A stretch of DNA of 64,000 nucleotides from Chiloscyllium plagiosum (GCF_004010195.1 NC_057755.1:288399-352398); one strand, 5' to 3'; positions 361-58,740 are shown, counted from the first letter of the stretch. Notes: generated by a model from the sequence alone, not told the origin. Program-made: numbers and translations.

Positions 361-364
361 ACAT

Positions 365-2390: not shown

Positions 2391-2399
2391 TGCTCCTTG

Positions 2400-17070: not shown

Positions 17071-17283
17071 GAGAAAGTGAGGACTGCAGATGCTGGAGAT
17101 CAGAGCTGAAAATGTGTTGCTGGAAAAGCGCAGCAGGTCAGGCAGCATCCAGGGAACAAGAGAATCGACGTTTCGGGCAAAAGCCCTTCTTCCTGAAGAA
17201 GGGCTTATGCCCGAAACGTCGATTCTCTTGTTCCCTGTATGCTGCCTGACCTGCTGCGCTTTTCCAGCAACACATTTTCAGCT
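17071..17283. mobile_element. Palindromic Penelope-derived non-autonomous element with TSD
   Basis: About 90 bp near-perfect inverted arms centred near 17192. CTGTCAATCCAGAGA is directly repeated at 17060-17074 and 17282-17296. Confidence 0.9.
17190..17224 (+). ncRNA. Minimal hammerhead-ribozyme-like motif (Penelope-associated)
   Basis: CTGAAGA (17193-17199), A, GGGC TTAT GCCC stem-loop, GAAAC, GTC (17218-17220). The conserved core is intact and stem III is reduced to the ACGT palindrome. Confidence 0.65.
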
Positions 17284-17959
17284 GTCAATCCAGAGACCCA
17301 GGTCATGTTCTGGGGACCTGGACACAACAGATGCCGGTATGTAAATTCAATAAAAGTCTGGAATTGAAGAGGCTAATGATGACTGATTGTCTGTTCACTC
17401 ATGCCCTTTGGAGAGGCAAAATGACGTCATTCCCTGTTGAGAACTACATGTGACTCCAGGCCCACGACAATGTGGTTGACACTTAGCTGCCCTGTAGGCA
17501 ATTAGGAATGGGCGATAAATGCTGGTGCTCGACGGCCATGCCCCTTCTTGAAACATTAACAGGGGAATTGGATGAGGCAATTTAATTCATTTTTGAGAGT
17601 GTAAAGAGGAATGGTAAAAGTCCATTCATCCCCTCTCATGTGAGGGCAAGAACAGCAGATGGGCATTACGCCAGTCGATACAGTTTGACTTGAAAAAGCC
17701 AAGAAACGGGGGAAAGTGAAGTTATGAGGAATGGGAATATGTGTGAGGTTCATTGACAATGGGATTGGGAATGAGGAATAGTTGGTGAGGTGGAGAGAAG
17801 TAATCCTGGGAGGCAATGCAACACGGAGGCAACTCATGGTGGCAATGGGCAGGGTGAGAGCAAGGCTCGATGTTGAGTTTTGGGAAGTTGAAGGGATGAG
17901 ACCGTTTGTTCATAGGTCATCAGAAGGCAATGTTCCTCCACCCAACACTGATTAAAGCT

Positions 17960-19180
17960 GGGAATCATCTCTATTACTCTGCATTTCATCCTTTCTCTAT
18001 TCCAAAGATATCTATAATATTCTGTATGCAATCCATTCTCATCCAGTTTAATTCTCTCCCTATTACTCTGTTTTTCACTTTCTCTCTCTATTTCCGCCCT
18101 GATTTGTATTCAATCTCCTGTATTCACTTCGTTGCATTTATTCCTCTCCTTATTAGTCAGTACTAAACCTCCACAATTATTCTTTACTCTACTCGACAGT
18201 TATCTGTGTTTGATTTTCGCTATTTCCTTGTAGCTACTCAGGTCTCTTCCTTTGAATTCAACCCTCTCCCTGTTACTCTCCGTTCAATCCTGTATCTAAT
18301 ACTTTCCACTTGTGCTTCTCACAATTACACTCCATTTCATCCACTTTATTTAAACCGCACACATGACAATCATTAATCTTCCCTCTGTATTCAACTTTCT
18401 CCGTACTACTCTCTAATTAGCACTCTCGCTATTGTTTTTTCTTTAATCCTCACCACTCTGTACTTAAGCCTCTATGCTCCCTTGCATTTAAAAGTGTCGC
18501 TGCTGTCCTGTATACAACCCTCTCAGTATTACTCTCTATTCAGTCTGTTTTCTATTACTCTGTGTTAACTCCCCTCACTATTCTCCTTAAGTGAACACTC
18601 ATTTTTCTCCATTGTATTCAACACTCTCCCCATTCTTCTGCATTATATCCTCTCAAATTCCACAAAGGTGGTAACCCATCATCAAGTCACACGGCATTTA
18701 CACTTGCATAATACATGGGACCGGCCCAGCAAGCACAATGCTGTTTCCGGGAGTGAGCAGAACCCCTGACACTCCAGTTTATATCTGTCAGCCAGGACTC
18801 AGTAATTGTACCAGGTGAACAGCCCCAATCAGGGAACTCATATTACATAAGATCCACTTGGCTGACCTCATTACATTCCCTACAGCTTCCCATGTATTAA
18901 CCTTTTCCCTGTGTCCCCGTAATCAGGTCACTCCCTTTTATTCCTCATATACTTCTTCTCCTATTAATTTCTGTTAAATCCTCTTTCTTTTTTGTCTTTA
19001 ACCCACCCTTCTTTCCAGTATTCAGTTTCTCCATATTACTCTCTACTTAATTCTCTCCTATTTTCTATTTAATCCTTTCCCATTATTCTCTATTGAATTC
19101 TCTCCCTATTACAAATTTAGCCCCCTCTCTATCTGTATTGAACCCTCTCTCTTTCCTCAGTGTTCTTTAACTATTGCACT
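17960..19180. repeat. Degenerate pyrimidine-rich minisatellite-like tract
   Basis: Recurring TATTACTCT / GTATTCAACCCTCTCCC variants. Related tracts occur at about 37195-37520, 52330-53470 and 54410-55650. Confidence 0.7.
18665..18875 (-). mobile_element. Short LTR-like dispersed repeat
   Basis: The minus strand starts TGTAATGAGGTCAGCCAAGTGGATC...GAGTTCCCTGATTGGGGCTGTT. Related copies are at about 11510-11650, 14400-14540, 48400-48490 and 54230-54400. Confidence 0.55.
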
Positions 19181-19999
19181 CCCCCATCCCCACCCCCATT
19201 TCAGGACACATATTTACACTTCCCAATAATCAGAGACCAGTGTCTTTGCCAAATCATTCCCCACAAGTTGTGATAGTCTGTTGGATTTTCGGATTGCTTA
19301 AAATATTCTATATTCTGTTTTCTTTTGTTTCTGTTTCTTTCGTTACTCTGTAAATAAACTCTGTTCTATTTAAAACCGAGGAATATTGACTCGCCGCATC
19401 ACTCCCAGAAATCCCACGTTACACCTGCTCAAAACAAGGAGAAATGCTAGCCTCTGGGTTGCCATCTTTAAATGTCTGGTGCATGTCTGACCTGGTCCAT
19501 AATAAATGCATTAAAAATAGAGCTATGTGCGTTCCTGGTTGGTCAGCGAATCAAAAGTTATGGGGAGAAGGCAGGAGAATAGAATTGGGGAACATATGCA
19601 ACATGGTCAAATAGCAGAGCTGACTTGATGGGCTGAATGGTCTAATTCCGCGACTGCATTGTATGTCCTTATGATCCAATATGTAACAATATTTATATAT
19701 GGAACAAACAGCTCCACCATGATAAAAATGGGTATATTGCATTCTTGGTTCAAACATGGACGAAACTACTGGAGTTCTGCCTTGCATTGAATATTCTCAT
19801 ATCTTGTTTTGTTCATTAGACTTAAGTCGTTGAACGGAATTAACAGTTCGTTTTTCAGGGTGCAGGAGTTACAGACACTGACATTTAGATATTTCCCCAG
19901 TAGCAAAAAAAATCGCCATTGAGAGAAATCTGTGCACCATGACCTGCTGCATGGTTCACCTGTCCTTTTTGAGGTGAGGGAGTCTCATGCTGACAGAGT

Positions 20000-21560
20000 C
20001 AGAACCACACCCAGAGGAACACATAAGCACACTCACACCCTCACACACTCACACTCACACACTAATGTCTGGACACAAACCAGATGCATTCACACACAAA
20101 GAAATACAGTCACACTGAGATATCAGACAAAATTCACGCAGACACACACACACACACACACACACACAGTCGCAGATATACTGACAGACAAAGGAACACA
20201 CCCATGCACATACCAAATACACACATATCCGCGCACGAAATATAGACATACTGAAATATAGGAACACATCTCCATACAGACAGGGAATCACATTCACATC
20301 CTCACAGACATATACAAACAAACTCAGAATAAGAGACGTGATACACTGGCTTGCAAGAATTGATAGAAACTTCTTATTCATATTCAGAAGTACATTCAAA
20401 CAGAGTTACTGATCTACGAAGACAATGAGATATAGTAGAGAGCGACACTCAGAATCAAACAGAAACACACCCACAAAGAGGCATAGAAAGATCCTGGTTG
20501 TGCACAGAAAGATCTTGACACATGGACAGACAGTCAAACACAGGCTGAACTAACACACACATGCTTAAACAAGAGCATAGCCAGACAGAGATGCACCTTG
20601 CACTCCAACAATAATATACTGACATTCAAAGACACACAAACACATAGAGTCACAGAAACATCATGACATGCTGTCAGTAATACCCACACGAACACAGTCA
20701 TAGGACTGTCACCCCAGCCAACACACAGGCACAAAGACAAAAGATACACATGTGCAAAATACACGTATACGCAATCACACAGGCACAATAATATACACTG
20801 ACATAAAAACACCCACCTTCACATAAACGCACTCACACAAAATGATTAAGATTTCCAAGTACATAAACACATGAAATTGTAGTCCCAGTAATACTTCACA
20901 ACACACACAAAGGGAAACCTACACTCAGATGCATTAACACACTCAGAATGTGTCATGCTCAGGGACATTTCCCACAACAAACAACAAGAGACACACACAC
21001 AAAGGGACATCCGCACAAAGGCAGTGAAGATCCCCACGCAGAGACCCACAGGCACCCTTACACACTGAAAGGGAAACACATGAAACACACCTCCTGCACA
21101 GCCATAGGGAGAGGAATGGTGGATGATCAAACTCGAGAAGATTTAATTACAGTAAGGCGTCAAAGTATTGTTGGCTGTACCTGTGCGCTTTGTATTTTGC
21201 AAAATCACTGCCTGGGGAAGGATCAGTTAACGAAAGGTCAGTGAGGGATTTGAGTCAATGTAAGTCTGCAATTGTTAATCTGAGACAACGTGCACAAAAG
21301 ACGCTGAGAGCCAGCGAGAGAGAAAGAGACAGAGAATGAGCTAGACAGAGAGACAAAGAAGGATAGACATAGCGGAAGACAGAGAGACCGGCAGACATAC
21401 AGATAGGTGGAGAGAGAGACAGAGAAAGAATGATACGCATGAAGACACACAGAGTGAGACAGAGAGAGAGAGAGAGAGAGACTCAGCAAGAAGCTGAGAC
21501 ATGGGGGCAGCACGAGAGAGAAAGACAGTCAAAATCCGAGGCAAACAGAAAGAGGTAAGG
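20000..21560. repeat. CA-rich then GA-rich low-complexity block with (CA)n at about 20142-20168 and (GA)n at about 21460-21481
   Basis: Seen directly. Paralogous blocks are at about 38330-39420 and 57900-59780. Confidence 0.9.
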
Positions 21561-22362
21561 TTAAATAAAATAATATCCTTGTGAATGGTGGAGACAGAAG
21601 GGGACTCAATAAACTCTGTCAAGTACAAATGTGCATGCAACAATAACCTATTCAGCTGAGGGGATCACCAACACCCAGAGCTTTCCTCTTGTTACAATAC
21701 ACCGTTTATTGTGAGCTGAACAGAGAGAACCTGACAATCATCATGGTGCAGGAAGGACTGTTTCTGCCACACCACTCCTCCCTTGCAGCTGAAATCCAGA
21801 GATCCCTCTTGCCGGTCATTAGCACTCATCAACAAGGCAGTCTGTGAAGACCCATTGGTCCAGATAAACCCATCACTCACAGCCAATCCGTCACTTCTAA
21901 TCACGCTTAGCCTCGTTCCATCCGACCCTACCCCTGGCAGTCAACTCTTCCCCCTTTATCTGCTGTCCCTTTTTCACCTCTTTCAATATTTCTGAAAGTG
22001 GAGGTGGATAGATTCCTATTCAGCTTGGCGGGAGGTAATCATTATCAAGGACAGGCAGGAGTGTGGAATATACTTTAGAATTGGACGACCCATGATTTTC
22101 TGGAATAGCAGGCTGTCCAAACACGAAGGTGTGGATGGCCTCCTGCTGTTCATTGTCTGTGCGTCCCCGCGTGTGTCAATCCGTCAGCCAATCAAGGATA
22201 GCAGCGTGTGCCTGAGAGTGGTGAATGGTGACCCATTCTGTTTCCCTATTTCCCATCCACCGTTGGATGTTATACCCAGATCCATGTGATTGTGTTGATG
22301 AAATCCTGGCCATACATATGCAAGCCCTGCACTGGAACACTGCAGCTGCATCTGGACTTCAC

Positions 22363-23332
22363 TCAGTTGTCTTGCTGAGTCATGAAACGGAGATTTACGT
22401 GCACCACATTCCCGAACATCTCTCTGAACCTAGGCAGAGTCGCTGCACAGAATACTGCATTCGTTCTGCAGTTGAAATCCTTGCGCATTTCTTCAGTGTA
22501 TGTTAAAATGATGAGAGACCTCTACTTCCAACAATCTGTTCGTTTAAAGTTATTGTAGAAGATATTAGCAGCGTGCACTACCTACATAAAAAAGAAGCAG
22601 ATGGATATGCTGAAGAGTGAAATCACCAACTTTCTCCGGCTCTCCATCTCGGCGTCTTTTTGGCTAACTCCTTTCTTTGACCTCCTCAGGTTCTTGCGGG
22701 CTAGACACAGAACAAAAATATACCTGACGGTCAGAATGTTCATCAACTGAATTAACACGAATGGCATTAGAGGGGTATCGACGACACCACAGAACGTTGT
22801 CTATTATCCTCCTTGGTTTAAACCAAAAATAGAAGGGATTTTTTTTTAAACAGAGCAGGATGCCAGTTGCAACCAGAGCCACAGCAAGACATTCTCTGTC
22901 CAATATTACCTCTTAATTTTCAGTCAATAAATAACTATAAAATGATCAAAGCAGAAAAGGACAGTGAACCAGATGGAACAGTCCAAAACTGCAAAAGCCA
23001 AGACAAAGATAGAACTGTACACAGAAGTGATGTCCAGGAAACAGCCTGGTAGGTAAACTTAGCCAAAAGTGAGAACTGAAGATGCTTGAAGCCAGAGTTT
23101 AGATCAGAGTGGTGCTGGAAAAGCAGAGCAGGTTTTTGCCCAAAAGATCGATTTTCCTGCTCCTGAGATGCTGTCTGACCTGCTGTGGTAAGTATTTATC
23201 TGAGTTGCCACAGTATTATCTTCGTGAGAATGAACATCAGATCCGTCGTTGTCATAGCCAACAAGCAGCGCATTGTGCAGTTAGAGATGCCACAATTACC
23301 AAATGCAAAGACCAAAATCACCAGCAAATTAA
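22363..23332 (-). pseudogene. GPR139/GPR142-like GPCR pseudogene, main exon (copy 2)
   Basis: Acceptor ccctgtctctttcAG at 23333-23334, then (V)NLLVILVFAFGNCGISNCTMRCLLAMTTTDLMFILTKIILWQLR*. After an insert: PGCFLDITSVYSSIFVLAFAVLDCSIWFTVLFCFDHFIVI, LLCLKKNPFYF...IIDNVLWC, LMPFVLIQLMNILTVRYIFV...DAEMESRRKLVISLFSIS, FNCRTNAVF...PRFREMF. Confidence 0.92.
23062..23188. mobile_element. Penelope-derived palindromic insert remnant inside the GPCR exon
   Basis: AAAGTGAGAACTGAAGATGC...GTGGTGCTGGAAAAGCAGAGCAGG...GCCCAAAAGATCGATTTTCCTGCTCC...GCTGTCTGACCTGCTG. Absent from copy 4. Confidence 0.8.
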
Positions 23333-24606
23333 CTGAAAGAGACAGGGGGCAACATTCAAAATGGGAATTAATGAGCAAACTTTATCCACGTCGGTACAGA
23401 GAGCAATGGAAGATCTTAGAACTGAATTGTGTCAGCTGGAAGGGTTCAGTGTCGAGTTTGAACAGGACAGCTCCAATGGCCTGACCCGTTTTGAAGCTTC
23501 TCCCTCCTGGCTTTAACTACGTTGGGCAGGCAATCAACATATGGGAGACGGGCCATAAATTTTAAGATGAGAGGGAAGAGGTTTACAGTGGATCTAAGGA
23601 AAAAGTTTTCGCCGAGAGAGCGTTGGGACCTGGTAATGGAGTGCCTGGAAGGGTTGTGGAAGCAGGAAACCTCACAAATTTTAAAAACTACCTGAATGAA
23701 CTTTTGAAGCGTCATAACATTGGACAATATGAGACTACTGCAGGAGGCTGGGAGGAGTAGACATTTCGTGTCGTTTTGATAGCGCAAACTGGATGCAATT
23801 AAGGATCATTTTCTGTACAGTCTGTTTCTCTGATTCTAAAAAAAACTACTTCTGAGAGGCAGTTTGTAAATTGAAGCATTTAAATGAAATAAATGAAAGG
23901 TACCAAATACTGAAAATATGAAACAGAATCAGAACTAACGGGCAAAGCCCAACAGTTAGCAGCATCTGTGGGGAGAGAAACAGATTTAGTGGAATCACTG
24001 TTCATTAGAACTTCTTCATCTGAGTATATGTCACTGAACTCAAAACATCATCTCAGGTTTTTCCTGCACAAAGCCCTTTAATTGCAATCAAAAGACAGGG
24101 AATCATTTCCAACAGGGAATTGATATTTAACGTTTTGATATTCACCAACGATGGAACAGTTGATTAACTGGTCTTCATGTACTGGGCATAGTTAGAGTCA
24201 TAGAGATGCACAAAACAGAAACAGCCCCTTAAGCTCAAATTGTCCATGCTGTCCACATATCCGAAATTAATGTAATCCATTTGCCTCCATATTCCTCTAA
24301 ACCTATTCTGTTAATTTACTCATCCAGATACTTTTTAAATGTTGTAATTGCACCAGCCACCATCGCTTCCTCTGACAGTTCATTCCACATACACACCAAT
24401 CTTTGCATGAAAAAGTTGTCCCTTATTTCCCTTTTAAAGTTTCCTCCTCTCAGCCTAAACCTATCTGCTCTGGTTTTGGTCTCCCACAAACCAGTGGGAA
24501 AAACTTGTCTACTTACCCTTCCCCTGTCCTTTATGATCTGATAATCTTTCACAAGGTCACCGCTCCACCTCCGACACTCCACGGAGATAGGCCCCAGCCT
24601 ATTCAG

Positions 24607-24780
24607 GTCAGGCAGCATCTAGGGAACAGAAGATTCGACGTTTCGGGCACATGCCCTTCTTCAGGAATGTGCCCGAAACGTCGAATCTTCTGTTCCCTAG
24701 ATGCTGCCTGACCTGCTGTGCTGTTCCAGCAATAAAGTTTCAGCTTTGATCTCCAGCGTCTGCAGACCTCACTTTCTCCT
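24607..24780. mobile_element. Palindromic Penelope-derived insert with a 14 bp TSD, nested in CR1
   Basis: CCCAGCCTATTCAG at 24593-24606 and 24781-24794. Inverted arms surround about 24660. Confidence 0.9.
24633..24668 (-). ncRNA. Minimal hammerhead-ribozyme-like motif
   Basis: Minus strand reads ATTC CTGAAGA A GGGCATGTGCCC GAAAC GTC GAAT. The core is intact, stem II is present and ATTC/GAAT gives a perfect 4 bp stem I. Confidence 0.7.
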
Positions 24781-26617
24781 CCCAGCCTATTCAGCCTCGC
24801 CCTGTAGCTCAAGTACTCCAACACTGGCAAAGTCCTTGTACTTACTTTCTGAAACCTTTCAAGTTTCAAGATATTCTTCGTTTTGAAGGGAGACCAGAAT
24901 TGGACATGGTATACCAAAAGCGGCCTAACCAATGTCCTGCACAGACATAACGTAGTCGCCCAATTCCAATACTCAAGGCTCTGACTAATAAAGGGACGTA
25001 TATCAAACGTCTTCTTCACCATCCAACTACCTGAGACTTATTGTCAAGGAACTATGAACCTGCACTCCAATGTCACTTTGTTCAGCAACGCTGCCCAGAA
25101 TCTTAACATTAACTGTATATGTCCTGCTGCGATTTGCCTTTCCAAAATGCAGCACTTCACGATCACCTTAATTAAACTCTATCTGCCGCTGCTTGGCCAA
25201 TTGGCCCATTAGATGGAGATCTCGTTGTACACTAAGGGAACCTTCTTCGCTACATTCTCCATCTCTAATTTTCTTGTCATCTACAAACTTGCTAACTTTG
25301 TCTCCCATGTTCATATTCAAATCATGAAAATGAATGAGGGGAAGCTGTACATCCAGCACCGATTCTTGTGGCACATCACTGGTCTCAGGCCTTCAGTCTG
25401 AAAAAAGCAACCCTCCACCACTACCCTCTGTCTTCTACCTTCGAGCCATTCCTGCCCAAAGGCTTGTACTCCCTGATTTCAATGTGGTGTAACCTTGCTC
25501 GCTACTCTTCGGCGAGGAATCTGGTTGAACACCTTCCTGAAGTTCATAAAGATCATGTCCACCGTTCTGCCCTCATCAATCCCCTTCATAACGTATTCAC
25601 AAAACACAATCAAGCTTGTGAGACACGATTTCCCACGCACAAGGCCAAGTTGATTATCCTTAATCAGTCCTTGCCAATCCTCAGGGACAGAACGCAAATT
25701 CTGTCCCTGAGGATTCCCTGCAACAGCTTCCCCATCACGACGTCAGACTCAGCAATCCATAGTTCTCTGACTTTTCCTTACCAACTTTCTCAAATCGTGG
25801 CACCACCAGAAACAACCACCAGTCTTCTGGCATCTCGGTTGTGACCAAGGATGATACAAATGTCTCAAGATGAGGCCCAGCAATCACTTGACTTACTTCC
25901 AAAAGAGATCTCGGTACGTCTGATCATATTCTGGGGATTTATCCAACTTCATACATTTTAAGACATGCAGCACTGCATCTTCTGTAATATGGACATTTTT
26001 AAGATGTCTCTATTTATTTCCCAATAATCTGCATCTTCCATATCTTTCTACACAGTAAATAATGATGCAAAAATACTCATTTTATACTTTCCCTTCCTGT
26101 GCAGTTCCATTCATAGGCTGCCTTGCTGATCTTTGAGGGGTCCCATTTTCTCCTGAGCTATGATATTGTCCTGAATGTATTTATGAAATCTCATTGGTTT
26201 CGACTTAACTCTATTTGCCAAAGCAATCTCATGTCTCCTTATTTCCTTCTTAAGTATACTCCATTATACTCCGAAGTATTCACTCTCTCTCTCTCTCTGC
26301 CTTATTTCCTAAGAGTTTGTCAAGGTTTGTGCCTTCTCCAGTAAGTACATCCAATTCTTGCTCACACTCAACAAGTGCCTCTCCATCTAGACCCTCAACA
26401 CGATGGAAGTCTATGTCTCTGTTTGGAAAGTAAAAATTCCCATATCATTACCACCTTATCATCATTTCAGATCAGTGCGACCGCCTTGCAATTTTTTTCC
26501 CTTAAAGGTCCCACTGTCTATTGGGGAGTCAGCACTATAAACCCAATTACGGGCTCAGCCCTTTCTTATTTCTCAGTTCAGCCCACGTAACTTTCCTGAA
26601 TGTATCCCGAGGAATAA

Positions 26618-27305
26618 AGTCGAGAGAGTGGTGCCCGTAAAGCACAATAGGTCAGGCAGCATCAGAGGAGCAGGAGAATGGAAGCTTGGGGCAAAATCCC
26701 TTCATCAAGAATGAGGCTGGGAGCCTCAGGGTTTGACAGAGATATATGGGAGGGGGTGGATCCCGGAGTAAGGTAGCTGAGAGTGCGATACGTGGATGAA
26801 AGTGGGGGTTAAAGTGACAGGTCAGCGAGGACGGTGGGGAGAATAGGTGCGAAGGAAGATGGACATGTAGGTCAGGTCATGTGGGCAGTGCTGAGCTGGA
26901 AGGATGGAACTGAGGTAAGATGGTGCTGGGGAAAATGTGTAAACTGGTGAAATTCACATTGATGCCCTGGGGTTGGATTGTCACAATGCAGAAGACGAAT
27001 CGTTCTTCCTCCAGGCGTCGGGTGGTAAAGGAGTTGGAATGGAGGAGTCCCAGGACCTGCATGTCCTCGGCAGAGTAGGAGGAGGACTTGAAGCATTTGA
27101 ACACGGGAGGTGGTGATGATGCAGATGTCCCAGAGATATTCTCTGAAGCGCTGTGGCGAATCGTCATCCAGTCTGACCAATGCAGTGGAGATCGCATCAG
27201 GAGCAATGGATACAGTTAATGCCATGTGTGGAAGGGCAGCTGAAACTTTGATGGATGTGGAAGGTTCCTTTGGGGTCTTGGACAGAGATGGGGAAGGAGG
27301 TGTGA
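26618..27305 (-). mobile_element. Penelope-like element 3' fragment (GIY-YIG region)
   Basis: PKGTFHIHQSFSCPSTHGINCIHCS, QRFREYLWD and SAEDMQVLGLLHSNSFTTRRLEEERFVFCIVTIQPQGINVNFTS, followed by the family terminus. Confidence 0.88.
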
Positions 27306-27499
27306 ACACAGATCTTGCAATTGAGGTTAGCGCAAAAGAGGAGCAACCTTTCTAAACACAATCTCCACCGCCCCCACCCTCCACATAGAATTACCGAGAA
27401 CCTTCTGGTCAGCATAAGACAAAAATGCTGAGTTGTAGCACTTGAAAAGATTTTATTATTATACAGATAATTTTAACAGAGTTGAGAAAGGTTTGTTTC

Positions 27500-31130: not shown

Positions 31131-31139
31131 ATTAGCAAA

Positions 31140-33600: not shown

Positions 33601-33619
33601 TAATTCAGTCCCCTCTAAG

Positions 33620-34190
33620 ACAATAATCAAACAGGAAAGGTAACAATGAAAAGTGCTGCCGGATTCCAGGACTGTTCGGGAAGCTTTCTGATTCCCACCC
33701 ATTTACTGAGAATGCACGAACGCTGTTGCTGCCCATCAGGCTAATCCAATTGCACCTCTCGTCCCAAACCCATCGCACATGTGTTGGTGTGCGATTTCCT
33801 ATCAAAGACCTTCTCTGGTCTAGGCTGATAATGCAGGTTTCCAATCCAACCTTACGACCCACAGACGATTATATCATTCAGGAACACGTGACCCTCAGAG
33901 ATCACCCTGTCCAGCACAGCACAGGTTTGGTTGGAGTGAACCACTAATCCCACAGCAGACCTGACCGAGTTGGTGATGAACTCAGGCAGGATTCTGTAAA
34001 CTGCATTAAGCAGTGAAACCAATCCCAACTCCTCCATCTATCCTTTATAATTGAAGATGAGAAGAATGATAATTTTCCTGTTGGATTCACACAGCCTACC
34101 TGTTCGAAAGCATACTGTTTTTGCGCTGCCTTTGTGCTTCGTGTCCTATAGACCAGCACAAAAGGATTTGCTGATCCTCAAGACGTTCTT
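33620..34190 (-). mobile_element. Tx1-clade RT remnant (paralog of 15775-16550)
   Basis: LVSLLNAVYRILPEFITNSVRSAVGLVVHSNQTCAV and IISLDQRRSL...SVNGWESESFPNSPGIRQHFSLLPFLF. Confidence 0.85.
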
Positions 34191-35877: not shown

Positions 35878-36069
35878 TAATAGTATTACGTGTAAACATG
35901 ATCAGCTCTAATATAAGCCAATATTTGTACAGGCACAAACGGTTCCAACAAAATAAAAAATACATAATGTATATTATACACATAAAACTTGAAAGAAATT
36001 GGAAATGAAGGATTTGTAGCCAAATTTGCAGATGACACAAAGACAGATGAGAAGGCAAGTTAGCACATT

Positions 36070-36408: not shown

Positions 36409-36908
36409 NNNNNNNNNNNNNNNNNNNNNNNNNNNNNNNNNNNNNNNNNNNNNNNNNNNNNNNNNNNNNNNNNNNNNNNNNNNNNNNNNNNNNNNNNNNN
36501 NNNNNNNNNNNNNNNNNNNNNNNNNNNNNNNNNNNNNNNNNNNNNNNNNNNNNNNNNNNNNNNNNNNNNNNNNNNNNNNNNNNNNNNNNNNNNNNNNNNN
36601 NNNNNNNNNNNNNNNNNNNNNNNNNNNNNNNNNNNNNNNNNNNNNNNNNNNNNNNNNNNNNNNNNNNNNNNNNNNNNNNNNNNNNNNNNNNNNNNNNNNN
36701 NNNNNNNNNNNNNNNNNNNNNNNNNNNNNNNNNNNNNNNNNNNNNNNNNNNNNNNNNNNNNNNNNNNNNNNNNNNNNNNNNNNNNNNNNNNNNNNNNNNN
36801 NNNNNNNNNNNNNNNNNNNNNNNNNNNNNNNNNNNNNNNNNNNNNNNNNNNNNNNNNNNNNNNNNNNNNNNNNNNNNNNNNNNNNNNNNNNNNNNNNNNN
36901 NNNNNNNN
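36409..36908. other. Assembly gap (500 N)
   Basis: Run of exactly 500 N. Confidence 1.
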
Positions 36909-37194
36909 CTTCGAAGATCAGGTTGACACAATTTAAAGAGGGACTTTTAGTTGATCAAAATATTGTCACAGAGTTGAAGGTAATTCACAGGCTTTTAACA
37001 GAAAGGAGGCTGAGACTTGTATATAGTTGTGTAGAATTCACTTTTAGACGTAAATAATAAAATTGATATTTGTCTTTAATTAGTGGAATTTGGGACATTC
37101 TCTGTCACTCATACATTAACTGCTTATGAGGCGAGGTGACCTTTTTCTCTGTGTTTGGCTTAATTAGCAGAAGGGTTCACCACTGTATCATAAA
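36909..37194 (+). mobile_element. 3' part of a solo LTR, paralog of 54567-55309
   Basis: Same end sequence (TTAGCAGAAGGGTTCACCACT...) and same downstream flank CTCTCCATTCCA as at 55310. Confidence 0.75.
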
Positions 37195-37759
37195 ACTCTC
37201 CATTCCATCGTCTCTATTCCCTTGTATTTAGCTCTCTTCAAGTTACTCTCTGGTTAATACTCTCTGTGCTACTTGATATTAAATCGTTTCCGTTTCCCCA
37301 TAGTTAACACTTTCCTCACTCAATTACAAACCATCTTGTTCCAATAAAACTCCATTTAAATATTACGCTGTGAGTTTGCATTCAATCCCATCCCGTTATG
37401 CCCTCTCGCTATTACTCTCTTTAAATTTTCCATTATTATTGCCTATTTAATCCGATGACTATAATTCTGCATTTAATTCTCTCCCTGTCACAATCTTTAG
37501 TCCCTTCTATAACTCTCTCTATCTTCCCGTGATGATTTTCAATTTTTGTTTTCCCTTCCAGAATGTGTGTTCCCCACACAATAACCAGAGATCAAGAGTC
37601 CCTGCTAAATCATTTATCACAACTGCTAACACGTGATCGCCGCTGCTGCGTGTTACCGCCTCTCTGGCTGGCGCTGGAATTGCAAATGTTCCTAAAGAGG
37701 AGCTCAGCAGCAGAACCATACGTCAGACAACATGTTGCTGATCGGGATGAGGCAGGCAT

Positions 37760-38340
37760 AACTTCAACATATACTATTATTTACATAATAAAAGCAACTG
37801 CTCCGATATACAACAAAATTTGTGTGTAAAGTGGAACAGTCACAATACAAAGTAATATTCATGGAAATAAACTGGAACAGTTCCAATTCACAACTTCTAT
37901 ACACAAAATGAAACAGCTCCAGTACATTTCAATATTTACATCTCGATATGAACCGGTCCAATATGCAATATTTAAATATGAACACGAACAGTTCGAATGC
38001 ACAACTGTTATACACAATATGAACCATTTCATTACAGCTTCAAGACTGATGTATAAACGTAAATACTTCAGAAACACAAAATGATTTAAATATAAACATG
38101 TGCAGCTGCAACACACAGCAATGATTATATACAATAGAAAACAGTTCAGAGATAAAACAATACTTATATACAAGCATGAACAGCTCAGAAACCAAACAGG
38201 AATTGAATACGAAGATGAACACTTTTCAGACACAATTACATTTATCTTTACAAATGAGTAAATATCTTAAATATATTTACATATAAATTGGAACAGCTCA
38301 AATCATACAAAAAGTATTCGATCAGCACAGAAAAAGTTAC
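37760..38340. repeat. Degenerate AT-rich tandem repeat with a period of about 36-41 bp
   Basis: Repeated ATATTTACATATAAAC.(G/T)GAACAG(C/T)TCCAATACAC variants. A paralog is at about 55890-56600. Confidence 0.8.
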
Positions 38341-39049
38341 ACTGCACAGAGTAAGAGATATTACACACCAACCTGCAAGAACTGGCAGACACGTTTTATA
38401 CATATACACACAACCCCTTAAAAACAGTTATTGAACCATAACCACAATGAGATATAGACAGGGAACAATACTCAGAAACAAACAGAGACAAAACCATAGA
38501 GGGACACAGAGAAATCCTGCTGGGGGTAAGAAAATATTGACACACGGACAAACAGCCAAGCACAGTCTGAACAACACACTCACCTGCTTAAACAAGAGCA
38601 CAGACAGACAGAACCACACCTTCCATTCCTCAATAATACACCAACAGTCAGAGACTCTCCCACATACAGTCAAGGAACCACTGTGTCATGCTGACGTTAA
38701 CACACACACACAACACGAGACACAGACAGAGAGTGACGTCGCCATAAAAGGCAATAAAACATGCCCACATATACTGACCCTCACACACCAGAAGTGAAAC
38801 ACAAAAACACAAACTCCCAATTAGTATCAAGTAGAGAGAGAGGGAGATAATAAAAGTGCATGACATGAAGGGGATGTTCATTCACTGAAAGTAATTAATA
38901 TTACGTCAAGGTATTGCTGGTTGTGTTTGTGAATTTTGTGTTTTGCAAGAATCACCTCATTGGGTAAAATCATTGAATGAGGAAATGTGGAAGTGATTTC
39001 AGTCAATTCATTTGAGAAAGTGTTAAACTGAAACTCTACTTATCTGATG

Positions 39050-39180
39050 TGGAGGAAGTGAGGACTGCAGATGCTGGAGATCAGCATCGACAGTGTGGTA
39101 TTTGAAAAGCATAGCAGGTCAGGCATCATCCGAGGAACAGGAGAATCGACGGTTCCGATATAAACCCTTCATCAGGAAAA
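39050..39180 (-). mobile_element. Penelope-derived short terminal fragment (shared with about 59405-59530)
   Basis: AGTGAGGACTGCAGATGCTGGAGATCAG...AAACCCTTCATCAGG at the same position in units C and D. Confidence 0.75.
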
Positions 39181-39991
39181 GGGCCTGATGTGGTCAATTT
39201 GAGAAAATGAAACAGAGGGTGAGGAATAGATAGAAAGATAAAGCACGAGATAGAGACAAAGGCAGATAGAGAGACAAAGCTAGAGGGAGACAGAAACAGA
39301 GGTACTGACAGCAAGGACCTTAGAGATAGGGAGAGATAGCGACATTGCGAAAATAGGGAGACGGACAGAGACAGCAACATGGAGAAAGAGGCAGAGAGAC
39401 AGAAGGCAATGCCCTAGTAATGGAAGTGTACAGGATGAAAACTCAAGAAACAAGGTCAAAACTGAAAACAAAAACGTGCATTAAACAATAACCATATCAG
39501 ATGAGGGGATCATCAAAACCCAGAGACTTTCTCTTATGGTAATAAACTGTTTATCGAGAGCTGAACAGAAAGATTCTGGCAGTGATCAGATTGTATCTGT
39601 TTTTGTCCCTCACCGTCCTCCTCCGCAGGGGCAATGCAGAGACCTCTCCTACCGGTCGTCAATACTCATCCATAGGACAGTCCAAGATCCCAACGTTCCA
39701 GCTGAACCCATCACTCACAGCCAGTCTGTCATTTCCAATCACTGCTGCAGCTTCTTTCCATCCAACCCTGCCCCTGACAGTCACCTCTTCCCCATTCCAT
39801 GCTGTCCCTTTGTCACGTCCATCAATGTTTCTAAAGGTGGAGGTGGATAGGATATTTTTAAGCTTGTTAGGTGGTGATCTTTCTCAGGGCATAGACAGGC
39901 ATGCGGATAAACTTTAGAACTGGATGAGCCACGATCTTCTGGAATGGTCGGCGGACCAAGCTCGAAGGGCTGAATGGCTTCCTGCTGCTCA

Positions 39992-40311
39992 TCCTGAACT
40001 TCGCTCTGAACTTGAGTATAGTTGCTGCAGAAAATAATGTGTTTGTGCTGCAGCTGAAACCTTCAGCATTTCGACACTGAACACAAAATTATTTGTAGAA
40101 CGACTGTACTTTCCAGCAGTTGTGCAGTTAATACTGTAATATAAGAAATTTGCACCGTCCACTAACCACAGAATTATGAAGCTGATGGATAGGGCGAAGA
40201 GAGAAATCACTGACTTCCTCCAGCTCCACATCCCTGTGCCTTTGTGACTCTCTCCCTTCCTCTGTCCTCTCAGGCTCTTGCGGACTAGACTGGCCACTGA
40301 AATGTACCTGA
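39992..40311 (-). pseudogene. GPR139-like GPCR fragment (about TM5 end to TM7), copy 3
   Basis: RYISVASLVRKSLRGQRKGESHKGTGMWSWRKSVISLFALSISFIILWLVDGANFLYY...; the 5' part is replaced by a CR1 fragment. Confidence 0.85.
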
Positions 40312-40510
40312 GGATTTCCTCAAACACCTTGCCCACCAACGACATAAACTCACCAGCCCATTGTTCTCTGGCTCTTCCTTCGCATCTTTCTTGTATAGTG
40401 GCAACACTTGAGCCAACCTCCAGCTTTCTGGCAGCTCACCTGTGACCAGCAATGATAAAAGTATCTCAGCGAGTTTCCCAGCAATTACTTCCCTCGCTTC
40501 CAAAAGAGTT
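40312..40510 (-). mobile_element. CR1 RT fragment abutting the GPCR remnant
   Basis: EAREVIAGKLAEILLSLLVTGELPESWRLAQVLPLYKK and SLVGKVFEEILR. Confidence 0.85.
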
Positions 40511-40757
40511 CACCACAGCAAACTGTAGAATTTGAACTATGAATAAGTCCGAAATTAAAGATGTGAATGATGACCAATGTTGATCGTCGGTTCATTTCTG
40601 TAGTTTAGAGAGGGAAAACTCCATCCTTAAGTGGTCAAGAGATGCGTGATTCTAGACCTACGGATATGTGATACTGAATTGCCCTTTACGCAATTAGGGA
40701 TGGGCAATAAATATTGGTGCCAGCCTGTGATACCATCTTCTCGTGATTGAATAAAAA
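40510..40757 (+). mobile_element. Deu-domain SINE fragment
   Basis: GCAATTAGGGATGGGCAATAAAT tail plus a degenerate core. Confidence 0.6.
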
Positions 40758-41529
40758 GAGCCCATTTCTGAGACAGATGCAAAGGAAGTGGAAGAGGCAA
40801 TTTAACTAAAGTTTAGATTGTAAAGAGGAACAGCTGAAGGCCAATCATCCCCTCCCATATGTATACAGAAACATCAGATGGGCAATACGTCAGGAGGGAA
40901 AGGGAAGCTCTCGTGGGTTGGGCATGTATGACGTTCAATGTCAACTGGATTGGGAATGAGGCAGTAGTCGGAGAGGTGGATACAGGTGATCCTGGGATGC
41001 AAAGAACGTCAGTGTCAACTAATGTTGGCGATGACGAAAGGAGAGCCAAGTCTCAATATTGAGGGTTTGAAAATTGAAGGGATGACACCTTATTGTGGTT
41101 GCTCATCACAAAACGATGCCTGCTCCCCCCACCAATTCTCACTAAAGCCTGAAATCATTTATGTTGCCATATATGTAATCCTTCCACAATTCTAAAAATT
41201 AATTCTGGGAGGGAGTTTGTGAAGTGATACATTTTCACGAAATAAATCAAAGGCTGTGGATACTGAAAATATGAAACAGAAACAGTAATAACTGACGAAA
41301 CCCAATAGGTATGGTATCGCCAGTGGAGAGAGAAACAGGTTTGATGCAATCATTCTTCTTCAGAGCACCTTCCTCTCAAAACATCATCTCGGTGTTGTCC
41401 TCTCACAAGGCGCTATACTGCAAATGAAGAACGGGGATTGATGTCCAAAATGAAATTAAGATTCAGAGTGTTCATATTAATCTACTATGAAACATTTGTT
41501 TGACAGATCTGAGCAGACTGAGCTTGGTT

Positions 41530-42380
41530 GGAGTCATTGAGATATAGAGCACGGAAACAGTCCCTTTGGTCCAATCAGATATTCGATCATCATCCACCAC
41601 TATTTGCCCCCAGAACCCTCAAAATATTTCCACTTCATTTACTCATCCAGTTGCTTTTTAAATGTTGTAATTGTACCATCTTTCTTAATTTCCTGTGGCA
41701 GTTCAATTCCATACATGCACTAGTCTTAGCTTTTAACTCTTTCCACTCTCACCCTCAACCTATGCTCTCTCTCTCTGGTCTCTCATAGACCAGGGAATGT
41801 ACCCTGTCTGTGTACCTTATCTATGACCCTCATGATTTTCTCAATCTCTATAATATCACCCCTAGCTCCAACGTCCCATTAAAAACGGAACTATTCAGCC
41901 TCTCACTGAAGCTCAAACCCTCCAATCCTGGTAATATCCTTGTGAATCGTTTCTGAACATTTTCATGTTTCACACCATCCTTGCTTTCAGAGTGAGACTA
42001 GAATGTTATACTTTTTTTCCCAAAAGAGGACTAAGCAATGTCTTGTACAGCTGCAACATGACCTCACAACTCCGCTAATCAATGGTCTGACCAATCAAGG
42101 ACCACATACCAAGCGTCTTCTTCACTGTCCTACCTACCGGAGACTCCACTTCTAAGGAACAATGAAACTGCACTCCAAAGTCTCTTTGTTCAGTAACACT
42201 CCCCAGGATCTTATGATTAAGTGTACCGGTCTAGCCCTGATTTGCCATTCCAACCTGCAGCACCTCAAATTTATCTAATTTGAATTCCGTCCACTTTTCC
42301 TCGGCCATTGGTCCATTTGATCAAAGTCCCATTGTACTCTGAGGTAACCTTCTTCGCTGTCTACTACAGTTTCAAATTTA
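41530..42380 (-). mobile_element. Degraded CR1-clade LINE 3' part (same position as 24190-25250 and 62300-63570)
   Basis: Matches the reverse complement of the CR1 3' end, e.g. CTATTCAGCCTCTC, TGTACAGCTGCAACATGACCTC and CACTCCAAAGTCTCTTTGTTCAG. Confidence 0.8.
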
Positions 42381-42399
42381 TCGAACCCTTCTCTGTTAT

Positions 42400-45300: not shown

Positions 45301-45450
45301 GTGCAGAGAAGCACACTGCTTCTTCACTCAATAGACCAGAGCCAAACTCAAATTAAATAATTTTGCTCTCTCTGCATCAAAATACCAACGCTCATACTTT
45401 TCCAAAGTGATTCAGTTTCTTAATTCCAACGAAATTCTCTTCAGCCTCAG
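42400..45450. repeat. Block Y of segmental unit C
   Basis: Colinear with 27500-31130. Confidence 0.9.
44446..45130 (+). mobile_element. CR1-clade LINE 3' fragment (fairly young)
   Basis: LYRTLVRPHLECYVQFWSPNLRKDILAIAGVQRRFTR...GLYTLEFRRLRGNLIEIYKII. The 3' UTR ends GAATGGCCTACTCCTGCACCTAT. Absent from the unit B paralog at about 30855. Confidence 0.92.
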
Positions 45451-45678
45451 TTGGAAATGCAGATTTCTGGAAGGTTCCCAGAAGAGATTAATTCCTGCAG
45501 AACTTGCGATGATGGGGATTCCACAGGATGTCTGTAACTTCAAACTAAATTACTGATCGTCTGTCACTGTGTGTGACCTTTGGCCAAAACTTGCCCATGT
45601 ACCATTCTCAGTGGTCGAGTGACCCCGCAAAGAATCCTCATACAGATTCACACAAATTCAATGGTACAAGGCACCTAC

Positions 45679-45745
45679 CAGGAATTGTTACATTTTGAAG
45701 GGTCCTGTAAAATATTCTCTGCATATGACGAATTGAGAACGTCAT
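45679..45745 (-). pseudogene. Candidate coding exon 1 of the GPR139-like gene in unit C
   Basis: ATG at 45745; MTFSIRHMQRIFYRTLQNVTIP+G, then donor GTAGG at 45678. The phase-1 junction fits the TT-AAT (V-N) start of exon 2, and the peptide resembles the family exon-1 pattern I..IFY.I.A.VGIP. Confidence 0.7.
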
Positions 45746-46029
45746 TTTCTGCCTGAATGTCTTTGTGCAGGTAATCTCTCTGCACTAAATGCCCAGGTGA
45801 TACAATCTCAAAGCCTTTCGTTTATACCTGCTGTCATTGCCGGGGGGACTGTTACATTATAATGTGGTTCAATTCATTTATTTAAGAATTTTAACGAACA
45901 GGTGAAAGTGGTGAGTTAACACCCAGTTGTGACAAAGTATTTTGAGAACTGCATTTTATTGAATCGTAGAAATCTCAATCGGACAATAGCAAACATTGGA
46001 AAATGTATATTAAACAAAGTGAGAAAATC

Positions 46030-46155
46030 CTTACAATATGGAAGCAGGCCAATGGGCCCATCGAGTCCACACCGACGCTGCAAAGGGTATTCCACGCAGA
46101 CGCACCGGCTGGCCCAGTCAGGCAACAGGGCTAGTCACTGAGCGACTGTGCCACT
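46030..46155 (-). mobile_element. Internally deleted V-SINE/HE1-like remnant
   Basis: The minus strand has the head GGCACAGTCGCTCAGTGACTAGC and a CR1-like tail GGACTCGATGGGCCCATTGGCCTGCTTCC. Confidence 0.55.
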
Positions 46156-46306
46156 CTACATACTATTGCCACCCAAACACCATCTATCCAACCTTGAAAT
46201 TAAATTTTATTTCAGTGTCATGCTTCCATTGCCTTTGACCATTTGGAAATTAAATTCCGATTGATGAGTATATCTCTGAGAAATGTCCTCCTCAACACTG
46301 GGATGC

Positions 46307-46537
46307 TGGAAAAGCGCAGCAGGTCAGGCAGCATCCAAGGAGAAGGAGAATCGACATTTTGGGCATAAGCCCTTCTTCAGGAATGCCTGCTTGGCACACC
46401 CTCCCCATTCCTGAAGAAGGCCTTATGCCAGAAACATCGATTCTCCTTCTCCTTGGATGCTGCCTGACCTGTTGCGCTTTTCCAGCAACAGATTTTTAAG
46501 CTCTGATCTCCAGCATCTGCAGTCCTCACTTTCTCCT
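46307..46537. mobile_element. Palindromic Penelope-derived insert with a 13 bp TSD
   Basis: AACACTGGGATGC at 46294-46306 and 46538-46550. The inverted arms each carry an ATTCCTGAAGAAGG..TTATGCC..AAA..TCG motif, separated by a spacer of about 22 bp. Confidence 0.9.
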
Positions 46538-47184
46538 AACACTGGGATGCGGCTTACCGAATTATCAGTGGCTGCTCTATGAAGGAATGATAGTTAGTGA
46601 TTGGAGGTGCCACATTGTAGGTTTTAATAAATCCAACATCACAGTAAAATACAGTTTCTGAATCAAAATACCTTTTTCTCAATCAAGGTAATAATTGAAA
46701 CAAGTAAAGTAACACATTAAAAAATACCCGACAAGTTATACAAGCTCCAGTCATTACAGGTCCTCCTACGAGGATACGAGTCTCCTTTACATGTTTCAGA
46801 GCTGACACAGAGACAAACACGCGATCTATGCAGCAGTACATGGGGATGAGCTATTCCCGATTCCCTGCAGTGAACTGCACATGTATGGAGAAGAAACCTA
46901 AAGCATCTGATTGATGATCAGATGGAACAGTTTCAAGCGAGATGGTACAGTAAGTTCAGGGAGGGATTTTCATACATAAGGATGCATAAGTGACAAATTC
47001 TGGAAATAACATCTGGAAGGCAATGCTGTCAATAAGGCCTATAGTGATGGGGAATGGGACTTGGTGCGAGGAATGATAAAGGACAGAAATCAGACAGCAG
47101 AAATAAATATGGTATGTTCATGTTGTCAGACTGATATTAGTGAGTGCCACAAGGATCATTTCTCCATGCACATCCATTTACAAT

Positions 47185-47312
47185 CTCGTGATGAAGGGCT
47201 TTTGCCCGAAGACTCCATTTTCCTGCTGTTCGGATGTTGTCTGACCTGCTGTGTTTTTCCAACACCACTCTAATCTTGACTCTAATCTCCAGCATCTGCA
47301 GTACCCACTTCT
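47185..47312 (+). mobile_element. Penelope-derived short terminal fragment
   Basis: GTGATGAAGGGCTTTTGCCCGAAGAC...CCAGCATCTGCAGTACCCACTTCT. Confidence 0.7.
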
Positions 47313-47730
47313 GCCCAATTATACTCTCCGCCAACAACAGAGATGATGGGATCATGTGTGACGTTGCTGACCGTACAATGTTCAGTGGGACAGTAAAACA
47401 CAAGGAGAACATAGGAACATTGGAAAGGTCAGGGGCAGGTTCACTGTGAATGATCACAAAATACTCCATGCAATATAATGTCGAGAAATGTGAGGCACTG
47501 TTCATTAATCTCAGCCTTGCAATGAATTTAGGCCATTCAATAAAGTTTTAGATGTAAATCCTAGTCCTAAATCAAGAGGCGACAAGACGCCTTTCTGCCC
47601 ATTCAGTGCCAGGGATTTCCACCATTCTCCTGAAAGTTTTACTCATCCCAGACCCTAACTTTGAGGAATTCAACCTTGGGTTTGTGTCATTTCACTTCCT
47701 CAGCATTGAACCCTTGCTGTCCAGCTATCA

Positions 47731-47926
47731 GAGCTGAAAATGTGTTGGCTGGAAAAGCGCAGCAGGTCAGGCAGCATCCAGGGAACAGGAGAATCGACGT
47801 TTCGGGCATAAGCCCTTCTTCAGGAACGTCGATTCTCCTGTTCCCTGGATGCTGCCTGACCTGCTGCGCTTTTCCAGCAACACATTTTCAGCTCTGATCT
47901 CCAGCATCTGCAGACCCCACTTTCTC
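47731..47926. mobile_element. Palindromic Penelope-derived insert with a 14 bp TSD and an intact hammerhead-like core on the minus strand (about 47791-47826)
   Basis: CTGTCCAGCTATCA at 47717-47730 and 47927-47940. The minus strand reads TTC CTGAAGA A GGGC TTAT GCCC GAAAC GTC GATTC. The site is empty in the paralog at about 14010. Confidence 0.92.
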
Positions 47927-47940
47927 CTGTCCAGCTATCA

Positions 47941-58685: not shown

Positions 58686-58740
<55 letters not shown>

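What the first reader, a model, noticed from the sequence alone, without database searches (positions are those of the whole stretch)
17071..47940. Family of palindromic Penelope-derived mini-elements carrying hammerhead-ribozyme-like cores
Seen in the sequence: at least four clean inserts (17071-17283, 24607-24780, 46307-46537, 47731-47926) of about 170-230 bp, each with a 13-15 bp TSD. Each is two head-to-head copies of the terminus found on the GIY-YIG-encoding Penelope fragments in this window. One arm always ends at CAG.CC.CACTTTCTC and the other is variably truncated. The centre holds CUGAAGA-A-GGGC(loop)GCCC-GAAAC-GUC. Established knowledge: this is the hammerhead catalytic core, and Penelope-like elements carry minimal hammerheads and inverted terminal copies. 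Inference: these are non-coding, ribozyme-bearing elements mobilised in trans, and they are among the youngest insertions here (nested in a SINE, a CR1 and one paralog of a duplication).
Basis: partly seen in the sequence, partly recalled or inferred. Interest (0 to 1): 0.72.

Follow-up and report, generated by a model that had tools for sequence, protein, structure and literature searches.

The report
Fold-back Penelope retroelement stubs in shark
These short mirror-image inserts are the tail ends of a shark Penelope-like retrotransposon, with the mirror half apparently built afresh at each insertion, so they are a real but largely known footprint of how this class of element inserts, not a new self-copying ribozyme family.

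Summary
All four inserts are present with exact 13–15-bp target duplications and head-to-head arms, and two older ones were missed. They are the hammerhead-bearing end of a shark Penelope-like element (PLE) in the published 'inverted 5′-truncated copy + tail at one end + TSD' arrangement, shrunk to about 200 bp. They do not look like a family that copies itself as a palindrome: 6 of 6 centre junctions differ, while the two arms of one insert share private variants. Only 3 of 8 arms keep an intact minimal-hammerhead core, and the long hairpin buries it. No arm starts at the cleavage site. Most likely both nicked target strands prime reverse transcription at the element's two start sites, and the products join at microhomologies. 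Unexplained: in 8 of 11 insertion events the 5′ edge sits 3–6 nt before the core, at an initiator-like motif. That leaves open a defined ~130-nt mobile monomer. This scan noted the same reading earlier on two other pieces of this genome. New member of a known kind; modest interest.

The parts
17071..17283 (.). E1: head-to-head insert. Tailed arm reads on the - strand (17192 to 17071), tail-less arm on the + strand (about 17190-17283). The centre joins at a TTC microhomology.
17060..17074 (+). E1 left target-site copy (15 bp, last 4 shared with the element end); right copy 17282-17296. Target is the tRNA-like head of a SINE.
17193..17220 (+). Intact minimal type-I hammerhead core in E1's tail-less arm
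24607..24780 (.). E2: tail-less arm on - (lacks 66-69 nt of the end), tailed arm on + starting in loop II. The centre joins at an ATG microhomology. TSD 24593-24606 / 24781-24794, inside a CR1-type ORF2 end.
24637..24664 (-). Intact minimal hammerhead core in E2's tail-less arm
46307..46537 (.). E3: both arms reach the hammerhead, both cores damaged. TSD 46294-46306 / 46538-46550.
46386..46405 (+). E3 20-nt centre: not a host insert but element sequence upstream of the hammerhead (summed depth 2.5e5-5.6e5 in X1 against 64-107 in the unique flank)
46501..46537 (+). The 'tail' (last 30-37 nt of the end). Its inner border recurs in public contigs as the re-entry point of tandem and inverted joints.
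   Evidence: tables 5, 5c
47731..47926 (.). E4: tail-less arm on - holds the whole core as the hairpin loop; tailed arm on + starts inside GAAAC. TSD 47717-47730 / 47927-47940. Absent from two paralogous stretches.
47796..47823 (-). Intact minimal hammerhead core in E4's tail-less arm
15488..15709 (.).
23066..23190 (.). E6: older short palindrome, no complete core, no clear TSD
337..1018 (+). 5'-truncated PLE: GIY-YIG fragment (337-711, 60% to P0001) running through the 3' UTR into a hammerhead-bearing end; duplicated at 8604-9345 (-)
26639..27334 (-). Second 5'-truncated PLE: linker and GIY-YIG fragment, 3' UTR and a tail-less end stopping about 35 nt short of the terminus
39051..39187 (-). 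Single unit with a 9-bp TSD and a 6-nt inverted stub; same insertion in the paralogue at 59407-59530
1165..1294 (+). Single unit starting at the (A)ATTCC before the core; duplicated at 8334-8465 (-)
47186..47310 (+). Old single unit

Best explanation
The inserts are extremely short insertion products of a shark endonuclease-bearing Penelope-like element (Neptune-type by its linker motif), with the mirror half made during each insertion. Proposed steps. (1) The GIY-YIG endonuclease nicks both target strands 13-15 nt apart (TSD shown here; double nicking shown in vitro for the Anolis element). (2) One nick primes reverse transcription at the fixed end; the other anneals by 2-4 nt of microhomology and primes at or beyond the inner border of the tail (ends and microhomology shown; priming inferred). 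(3) Both cDNAs come from the same source, probably one RNA, and stop near the hammerhead (shared private variants shown; single RNA inferred). (4) The two cDNA ends are joined, or one folds back, at 1-3 nt of microhomology, and repair fills in (junctions shown; order inferred). The hammerhead is a passenger. It is not cut during the event, and a transcript of the finished insert is a long hairpin that buries the core. The palindromes are most likely dead ends.
For: Six of six centres differ. Over a shared 36-nt stretch, arms of one insert differ at 0-1 sites and arms of different inserts at 1-7. Outer microhomology of the tail-less arm is 2, 3, 3, 4 nt (chance about 1e-5). In public contigs of the same organism label (X1) the fixed end is followed by unrelated flanks in 1025+1208+1087+511 contigs at four adjacent positions (agreement 0.33-0.34). 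Of 15 joints listed (55 not shown), 7 switch strand; 6 of these join an inverted arm to a tail-only arm, as two-site priming predicts. 9 of 12 listed joints with letters between re-enter at the tail border 46500-46508 (92 not shown). A GIY-YIG-linked fragment also ends tail-less at that border. Opening the hairpin to a hammerhead fold costs 16-40 kcal/mol. No arm starts at the cut site. Literature: inverted pLTR + 31-bp tail + TSD (PMC3846280; PMC8557442); both strands cut and extended, two RT start sites equal the tail, hammerhead mutants still insert (PMC11167929).
Against: Only six palindromes were read whole; no genome was held. De Bruijn contigs collapse palindromes, so a recurrent overlapping junction could be hidden among the 55 unlisted joints. 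The joint table does not show where those inverted arms end. The 46501 border may be clipped by E3's private letters just upstream. E2, E3 and E6 lose 50-69 nt, more than the 30-40-nt tail. Shared variants between arms could also come from arm-to-arm conversion after insertion. The model does not explain why the 5' edge recurs at -3 to -6. The in vitro data come from a Poseidon-clade element that prefers AT-rich targets, and these four targets are not AT-rich.
Confidence: 0.72

Rival explanations
1. A defined ~130-nt RNA (initiator-like start just before the hammerhead, through to the tail) is a SINE-like non-autonomous unit mobilised in trans by the PLE protein. Palindromes are still built at insertion, but from this short RNA and not by chance truncation of long transcripts. 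This differs from the best explanation in the source RNA only.
For: The 5' edge lies at -3 to -6 from the core's first C in 8 of 11 independent hammerhead-end insertions in the window; 5 of 6 tail-less arms start at -3 to -5 (chance below 1e-3 if uniform). The 7 listed strand-switch joints start at -11 to +12 and 2 tandem joints re-enter at -3 and 0. The motif fits the initiator consensus YYANWYY (consensus recalled). D. virilis Penelope has a TATA-less internal pLTR promoter (PMC2377424, passages). pLTRs suffice for mobilisation in trans in a rotifer.
Against: E3's tailed arm runs to -22 although its two arms share variants, so its template was longer. The reference laid starts at -24, so longer arms could not appear as clean joints. 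No pile-up of RNA starts in the one raw RNA run laid (table 6; single-cell poly(A) library, about 2% read, weak test). An RT stop or an endonuclease nick at ATT would give the same edge.
Confidence: 0.3
2. One reading: the palindrome itself is a ribozyme-bearing non-autonomous element that is transcribed, processed by its hammerheads and re-inserted as a palindrome.
For: Several young copies of similar size in 64 kb; intact cores in three; E1 and E4 tailed arms are 97% alike.
Against: E1 and E4 have near-identical arms yet different centres. At most one intact core per element, on one strand only, so no in-cis dimer is possible, and it is paired off. No dominant joint among those listed.
Confidence: 0.07
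3. Self-priming fold-back on an antisense template (the reading offered by Arkhipova et al. 2013), or fold-back of one cDNA alone, makes the head-to-head structure.
For: The centres have the short microhomologies that fold-back needs. RNA reads lie in both orientations on the unit. The model is proposed in PMC3846280 (Discussion).
Against: In E1, E2 and E4 the unpaired centre belongs to the tail-less arm, and in E3 to the tailed arm. A single fold-back cannot supply the tail from a tail-less strand, nor explain inverted arms joined to a tail-only arm without a second priming event.
Confidence: 0.15
4. MITE-like DNA transposons, or later recombination or deletion between two neighbouring opposite PLE copies.
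For: Inverted arms and TSDs resemble MITEs superficially.
Against: Ends are asymmetric, TSD length varies (13-15), all sequence is PLE-derived, one TSD pair brackets both arms, and empty sites carry the target once.
Confidence: 0.03

Closest known systems
Complex insertions of EN+ Penelope-like elements: inverted pLTR plus tail plus TSD (Arkhipova et al. 2013, PMC3846280; Craig et al. 2021, PMC8557442; Schostak et al. 2008, PMC2377424, Fig. 1C legend)
   Same: Head-to-head inverted 5'-truncated copy, 30-40-bp extension at one end only, one TSD around the whole unit, palindrome at the inverted junction, hammerhead in the pLTR.
   Different: Here the ORF is wholly absent and the unit is 170-230 bp. 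TSDs are 13-15 bp against 8-10 bp in the rotifer. The 5' edge clusters just before the hammerhead.
Anolis Poseidon element PAc in vitro (Frangieh et al. 2024, PMC11167929)
   Same: Two RT start sites that delimit the tail; both target strands nicked and extended; uncut RNA is the template.
   Different: Different clade and host; AT-rich target preference is not evident here. In the parts I read (1-2 of 4) the paper does not derive inverted copies from the two start sites.
Minimal type-I hammerheads of metazoan PLEs (Cervera and de la Pena 2014, PMC4209133)
   Same: Same core, extra nucleotide before helix II, G10.1-C11.1, palindromic ACGU in place of helix III. Opposite-strand pairs 100-700 bp apart were noted in Schistosoma.
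   Different: Sharks are not named in the parts read. Helix I is only 2 bp in E1/E4 and 4 bp in E2, helix II is 4 bp, and the core is trapped in a hairpin.
Non-LTR retrozymes (Li et al. 2026 preprint 10.64898/2026.07.22.740005)
   Same: Non-coding, pLTR-derived, type-I hammerhead; reported in one chondrichthyan genome.
   Different: Retrozymes are head-to-tail tandems with a core in each unit. These inserts are head-to-head with at most one core.
LINE-1 twin-priming 5' inversions (recalled, from no call)
   Same: Two target nicks prime on one RNA; products are joined at microhomology.
   Different: L1 inversions are non-overlapping. Here both cDNAs usually cover the same stretch, giving a palindrome.

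Membership tests
EN+ Penelope-like element insertion | End sequence is linked to an RT + C-terminal GIY-YIG ORF | tested here: met
   Two fragments run from GIY-YIG sequence into the end. The closest protein P0001 (69%) has RVT_1 and GIY-YIG hits, both just below Pfam cut-off. Arms are about 80% to these ends.
EN+ Penelope-like element insertion | Inverted 5'-truncated copy head-to-head with the main copy | tested here: met
   6 of 6 palindromes
EN+ Penelope-like element insertion | 30-40-bp tail at one end only | tested here: met
   E1 lacks 35-37 nt, E4 30-34 nt, the fragment at 26639 about 35 nt; read joints re-enter at 46500-46508. E2, E3 and E6 lack more (50-69 nt).
EN+ Penelope-like element insertion | Target-site duplication around the whole unit | tested here: met
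   15/14/13/14 bp; target present once in homologues for E2 and E4
Neptune clade of PLEs | Zn-finger-like Cys motif in the RT-EN linker (feature as in PMC8557442, shared with Nematis) | tested here: met
   Present in P0001-P0003, degenerate in window 26639-27334, and in 70 of 109 relatives with the GIY motif
Neptune clade of PLEs | Placement by RT phylogeny against named references | not tested
   No named reference set was in hand
Minimal type-I hammerhead (PLE min-HHR) | Core CUGANGA, GAAA, UH with helix II closed by G10.1-C11.1 and one extra nucleotide | tested here: met
   3 of 8 arms of E1-E4; 1 hit in 100 resampled windows
Minimal type-I hammerhead (PLE min-HHR) | Palindromic positions 15.2-16.2 allowing a dimer | tested here: met
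   ACGU in all three intact cores
Minimal type-I hammerhead (PLE min-HHR) | Helix I of 4-5 bp | tested here: inconclusive
   4 bp possible in E2, 2 bp then U-U in E1 and E4; pair probabilities at most 0.09 even in isolated arms
Minimal type-I hammerhead (PLE min-HHR) | Core better conserved than flanks | tested here: inconclusive
   Non-CpG mismatches 7/110 (core) vs 30/330 (flank), permutation p about 0.2, 11 copies; N7 and loop II are the most variable (12/54)
Minimal type-I hammerhead (PLE min-HHR) | Self-cleavage after GUC | not testable with these tools
   No pile-up of RNA ends in one raw RNA run, a weak test
Non-LTR retrozyme | Head-to-tail tandem with complete hammerheads in at least two consecutive units | tested here: not met
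   Head-to-head, at most one core per insert. Head-to-tail joints of the unit exist elsewhere in organism B contigs but are not these inserts.
Self-propagating non-autonomous palindromic family (MITE- or SINE-like) | Copies share one internal structure and both ends | tested here: not met
   6 of 6 centres and 6 of 6 tail-less outer ends differ

The most novel reading that the evidence does not exclude
Sharks carry a very abundant ~130-nt, initiator-started, hammerhead-headed RNA unit that the Penelope protein mobilises in trans, and its thousands of stub insertions record a two-nick, two-start-site priming mechanism on a sense RNA. That would explain the long-unexplained inverted-pLTR-plus-tail structure of all PLEs and could be tested from one genome assembly.
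Probability: 0.3. Interest if true: 0.62.

Novelty: new member of a known kind. Interest (0 to 1): 0.3.

Why it matters
The structure is known, but how PLEs build it is described as still undefined (PMC8557442). These stubs strip the structure down to its junctions and are abundant: at least 3,831 contigs leave the fixed end into unrelated flanks in one run. A shark genome is therefore a cheap, large data set for choosing between antisense self-priming and two-site priming, and for asking whether a short hammerhead-headed unit moves on its own. For annotation, they could be mistaken for MITEs or microRNA hairpins (sub-threshold Rfam miRNA matches). As a new ribozyme element the finding does not hold.

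Tried and rejected
Whole-genome census: no genome held. Rfam: no hit at gathering in the window; only generic hairpin matches on E4 up to E=10. Exact-motif scans of viral and metagenome contigs: 0 loci each. Run search: no RNA holder listed, which is no evidence on expression. Summed contig depth was not used as a copy number. Hammerhead cleavage as the cause of the 5' edge: rejected, no arm starts at +28 and the nearest starts at about +22 to +24. Splice acceptor at the 5' edge, as in D. virilis: rejected, no AG before CATTCC in E3's upstream sequence. ORF start inside the arm: a 26-codon frame from an ATG through the tail is open in E1, E2, E4, E5 and the 1165 copy, shifted in E3 and stopped in the 899 copy, but it matched none of 153 relatives and nothing in a search of longer proteins; unproven. 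The script stopped with an error after E5; one search covers two more copies. E3's centre as captured host DNA: rejected, it is repeated element sequence. Not in print as a shark family in 8 searches of the held library. Dfam and Repbase could not be searched, and the preprint's supplements (which may hold its chondrichthyan consensus) were not seen, so a prior description is quite possible.
Full report
Setting. The window is shark DNA by inference: its GIY-YIG fragment at 349-669 hits two Chiloscyllium punctatum proteins at 67-69%. The closest, P0001, holds an RT end, a Cys-rich linker and a GIY-YIG domain, the layout of an endonuclease-bearing Penelope-like element (PLE) of Neptune type (linker feature from PMC8557442, passages; no tree was built). 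No whole genome is held, so counts beyond the window come from one laying of four public runs.

Observation. The four inserts are real. Exact flanking repeats are 15, 14, 13 and 14 bp, a length reached by 6 of 1,460 random positions. Arms are 89, 49, 82 and 54 bp ungapped, with 2, 0, 6 and 0 mismatches. With one TSD copy removed in silico, E2's site is a continuous CR1-type ORF2 end (E 1e-42) matched by 4 window homologues that carry the target once. E4's site is matched by 2 paralogues. E1's site is a tRNA-like head with an A box. E3 had no homologue. A search with one arm finds 22 matches: 8 are the arms of E1-E4, 4 belong to two older palindromes (E5, E6), and the rest are GIY-YIG-linked ends, single units and weak remnants.

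Anatomy. In every insert one arm carries the fixed end and the other lacks 30-69 nt of it: E4 30-34, E1 35-37, E3 50-53, E2 66-69. The short end meets the target through 2, 3, 3 and 4 shared letters (chance about 1e-5). Every centre is different. The tailed arm starts at about +2 (E1), +14 (E2), -22 (E3), +22 (E4), -5 (E5) and +56 (E6) relative to the first C of the core, with 1-3 nt of microhomology at the join in E1-E4. Yet the two arms of one insert share private letters: 0-1 differences in 36 nt within an insert, 1-7 between inserts. E1 and E4 have 97% identical tailed arms and different centres. This is what one expects if the mirror half is made at each insertion from one source, and not if a palindrome were being copied. 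Arm-to-arm conversion after insertion would also give shared letters and is not excluded.

The hammerhead. The motif fits the minimal type-I hammerhead of metazoan PLEs (PMC4209133, parts 1-2 of 4 read): core, extra nucleotide, G-C closing pair, palindromic ACGU. A strict descriptor finds 3 in the window, one each in the tail-less arms of E1, E2 and E4, against 1 in 100 resampled windows. E3 has none intact. In a transcript of the whole insert the GUC and helix I are paired into the long hairpin, and forcing a hammerhead-like fold costs 16-40 kcal/mol. No arm begins at the cleavage site. Across 11 copies the core is not significantly better kept than the flank (7/110 vs 30/330 non-CpG mismatches, p about 0.2), though N7 and loop II, the free positions, vary most. 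That paper found no cleavage for a monomer and low cleavage for multimers. In the Anolis element, cleavage needs protein and is not needed for insertion (PMC11167929, parts 1-2 of 4 read).

Beyond the window (E3's centre, tailed arm and flank laid at 80% likeness). 69,333 contigs of X1 and 86,241 of X13 (another organism label) lie on the stretch. In X1, 3,831 contigs in the four listed rows leave the end at 46536-46539 into mutually unrelated flanks, so the end is fixed and the sites number in the thousands. Of 15 listed joints (55 not shown), 7 switch strand, each at its own coordinates with 1-3 contigs per run. The lengths of their shorter sides fit a head-to-head join, and in 6 of 7 the tailed arm is the tail alone (from 46501-46507). 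Two listed joints duplicate the tail in tandem, and 9 of 12 listed joints with letters between (92 not shown) re-enter at 46500-46508. The tail border is thus a hot spot, 30-38 nt from the end. Limits: contigs of this kind collapse palindromes, the table does not show where the inverted arms end, and E3's private letters can clip the border. In the one raw RNA run (about 2% read), 3,328 reads lie on the unit in both orientations with no pile-up of ends.

Mechanism. Published PLE insertions often have an inverted 5'-truncated copy, a 30-40-bp tail at one end and a TSD (PMC3846280, passages and Discussion; PMC8557442; PMC8969392 and PMC2377424, passages). In vitro, a PLE protein nicks and extends both target strands and starts at two RNA sites that delimit the tail. 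Combining these with the junctions seen here, I infer two-site priming: each nick primes one start site, both cDNAs end near the hammerhead, and they join at microhomology. A single fold-back explains E1, E2 and E4's centres but not the tail on the other arm, E3's longer tailed arm, or tail-only arms. Confidence 0.72 that the palindromes are built at insertion by the PLE machinery roughly this way. The detailed order of steps is inferred, not shown.

Unexplained. The 5' edge of at least one arm lies at -3 to -6 in 8 of 11 independent hammerhead-end insertions (E1-E5, the 39051/59407 pair, the 1165/8465 pair, 47186; exceptions E6 and the two GIY-YIG-linked ends). The letters there fit the initiator consensus (recalled). 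My guess is a transcription start (45%), an RT stop or processing point (35%), or an endonuclease nick at ATT (20%). E3's arm running to -22 argues against a start site as the sole cause.

Comparison and novelty. It works like, and passes the testable features of, a canonical PLE complex insertion. It fails the tandem criterion of non-LTR retrozymes (preprint 10.64898/2026.07.22.740005: part 1 of 5, passages and Discussion read; supplements not seen) and fails the shared-structure criterion of a MITE- or SINE-like palindromic family. Eight library searches found no description of the shark stubs. Dfam and Repbase were out of reach. Two earlier notes of this scan on other pieces of the same genome reach the same reading; they are unchecked and not counted as support, but one led me to PMC3846280. 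Verdict: real, new member of a known kind, interest 0.3; 0.62 if the short-unit and two-site priming reading proves true (probability 0.3).

Noticed in passing
window 2-3907 and 5712-9613: Large recent inverted duplication (arms 96-98% complementary) around an N gap at 3909-4408; it could be a real palindrome or an assembly artefact.
   Followed up: no
window about 20000-27000, 37400-42200, 55500-63300: Three paralogous blocks at 70-81% identity, spaced about 17.8 and 20.4 kb: an old tandem triplication. The single PLE unit at 39051/59407 predates one duplication.
   Followed up: partly
window 100-350, 15780-16300, 33620-34120 (- strand): Three decayed copies of an RT N-terminal region that looks L1/Tx1-like by its motifs (recalled; no Pfam hit).
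   Followed up: partly
window 39179-39193: The single unit has a 9-bp TSD and a 6-nt inverted stub at its 5' edge, perhaps the smallest form of the inverted arm.
   Followed up: partly
window 17071-17148 (-), and the matching part of E2, E4, E5 and 1165: A 26-codon frame from an ATG stays open through the tail in 5 of 7 copies read; it may be the start of the PLE ORF, as in rotifer Pen2a, but no protein match was found.
   Followed up: yes
reference 46503-46537: Public contigs show the tail duplicated head-to-tail (10 and 8 contigs in X1 for two joints) and whole units in tandem in X13, so retrozyme-like tandems of this unit may exist elsewhere.
   Followed up: no
window 53489-53629: A further, more diverged GIY-YIG fragment (49% to P0001) without a recognisable hammerhead end before the N gap at 53880.
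   Followed up: partly
window 9677-10573 (-): Open 298-aa CR1-type RT C-terminal frame (weak RVT_1 hit), a fairly young LINE fragment.
   Followed up: partly
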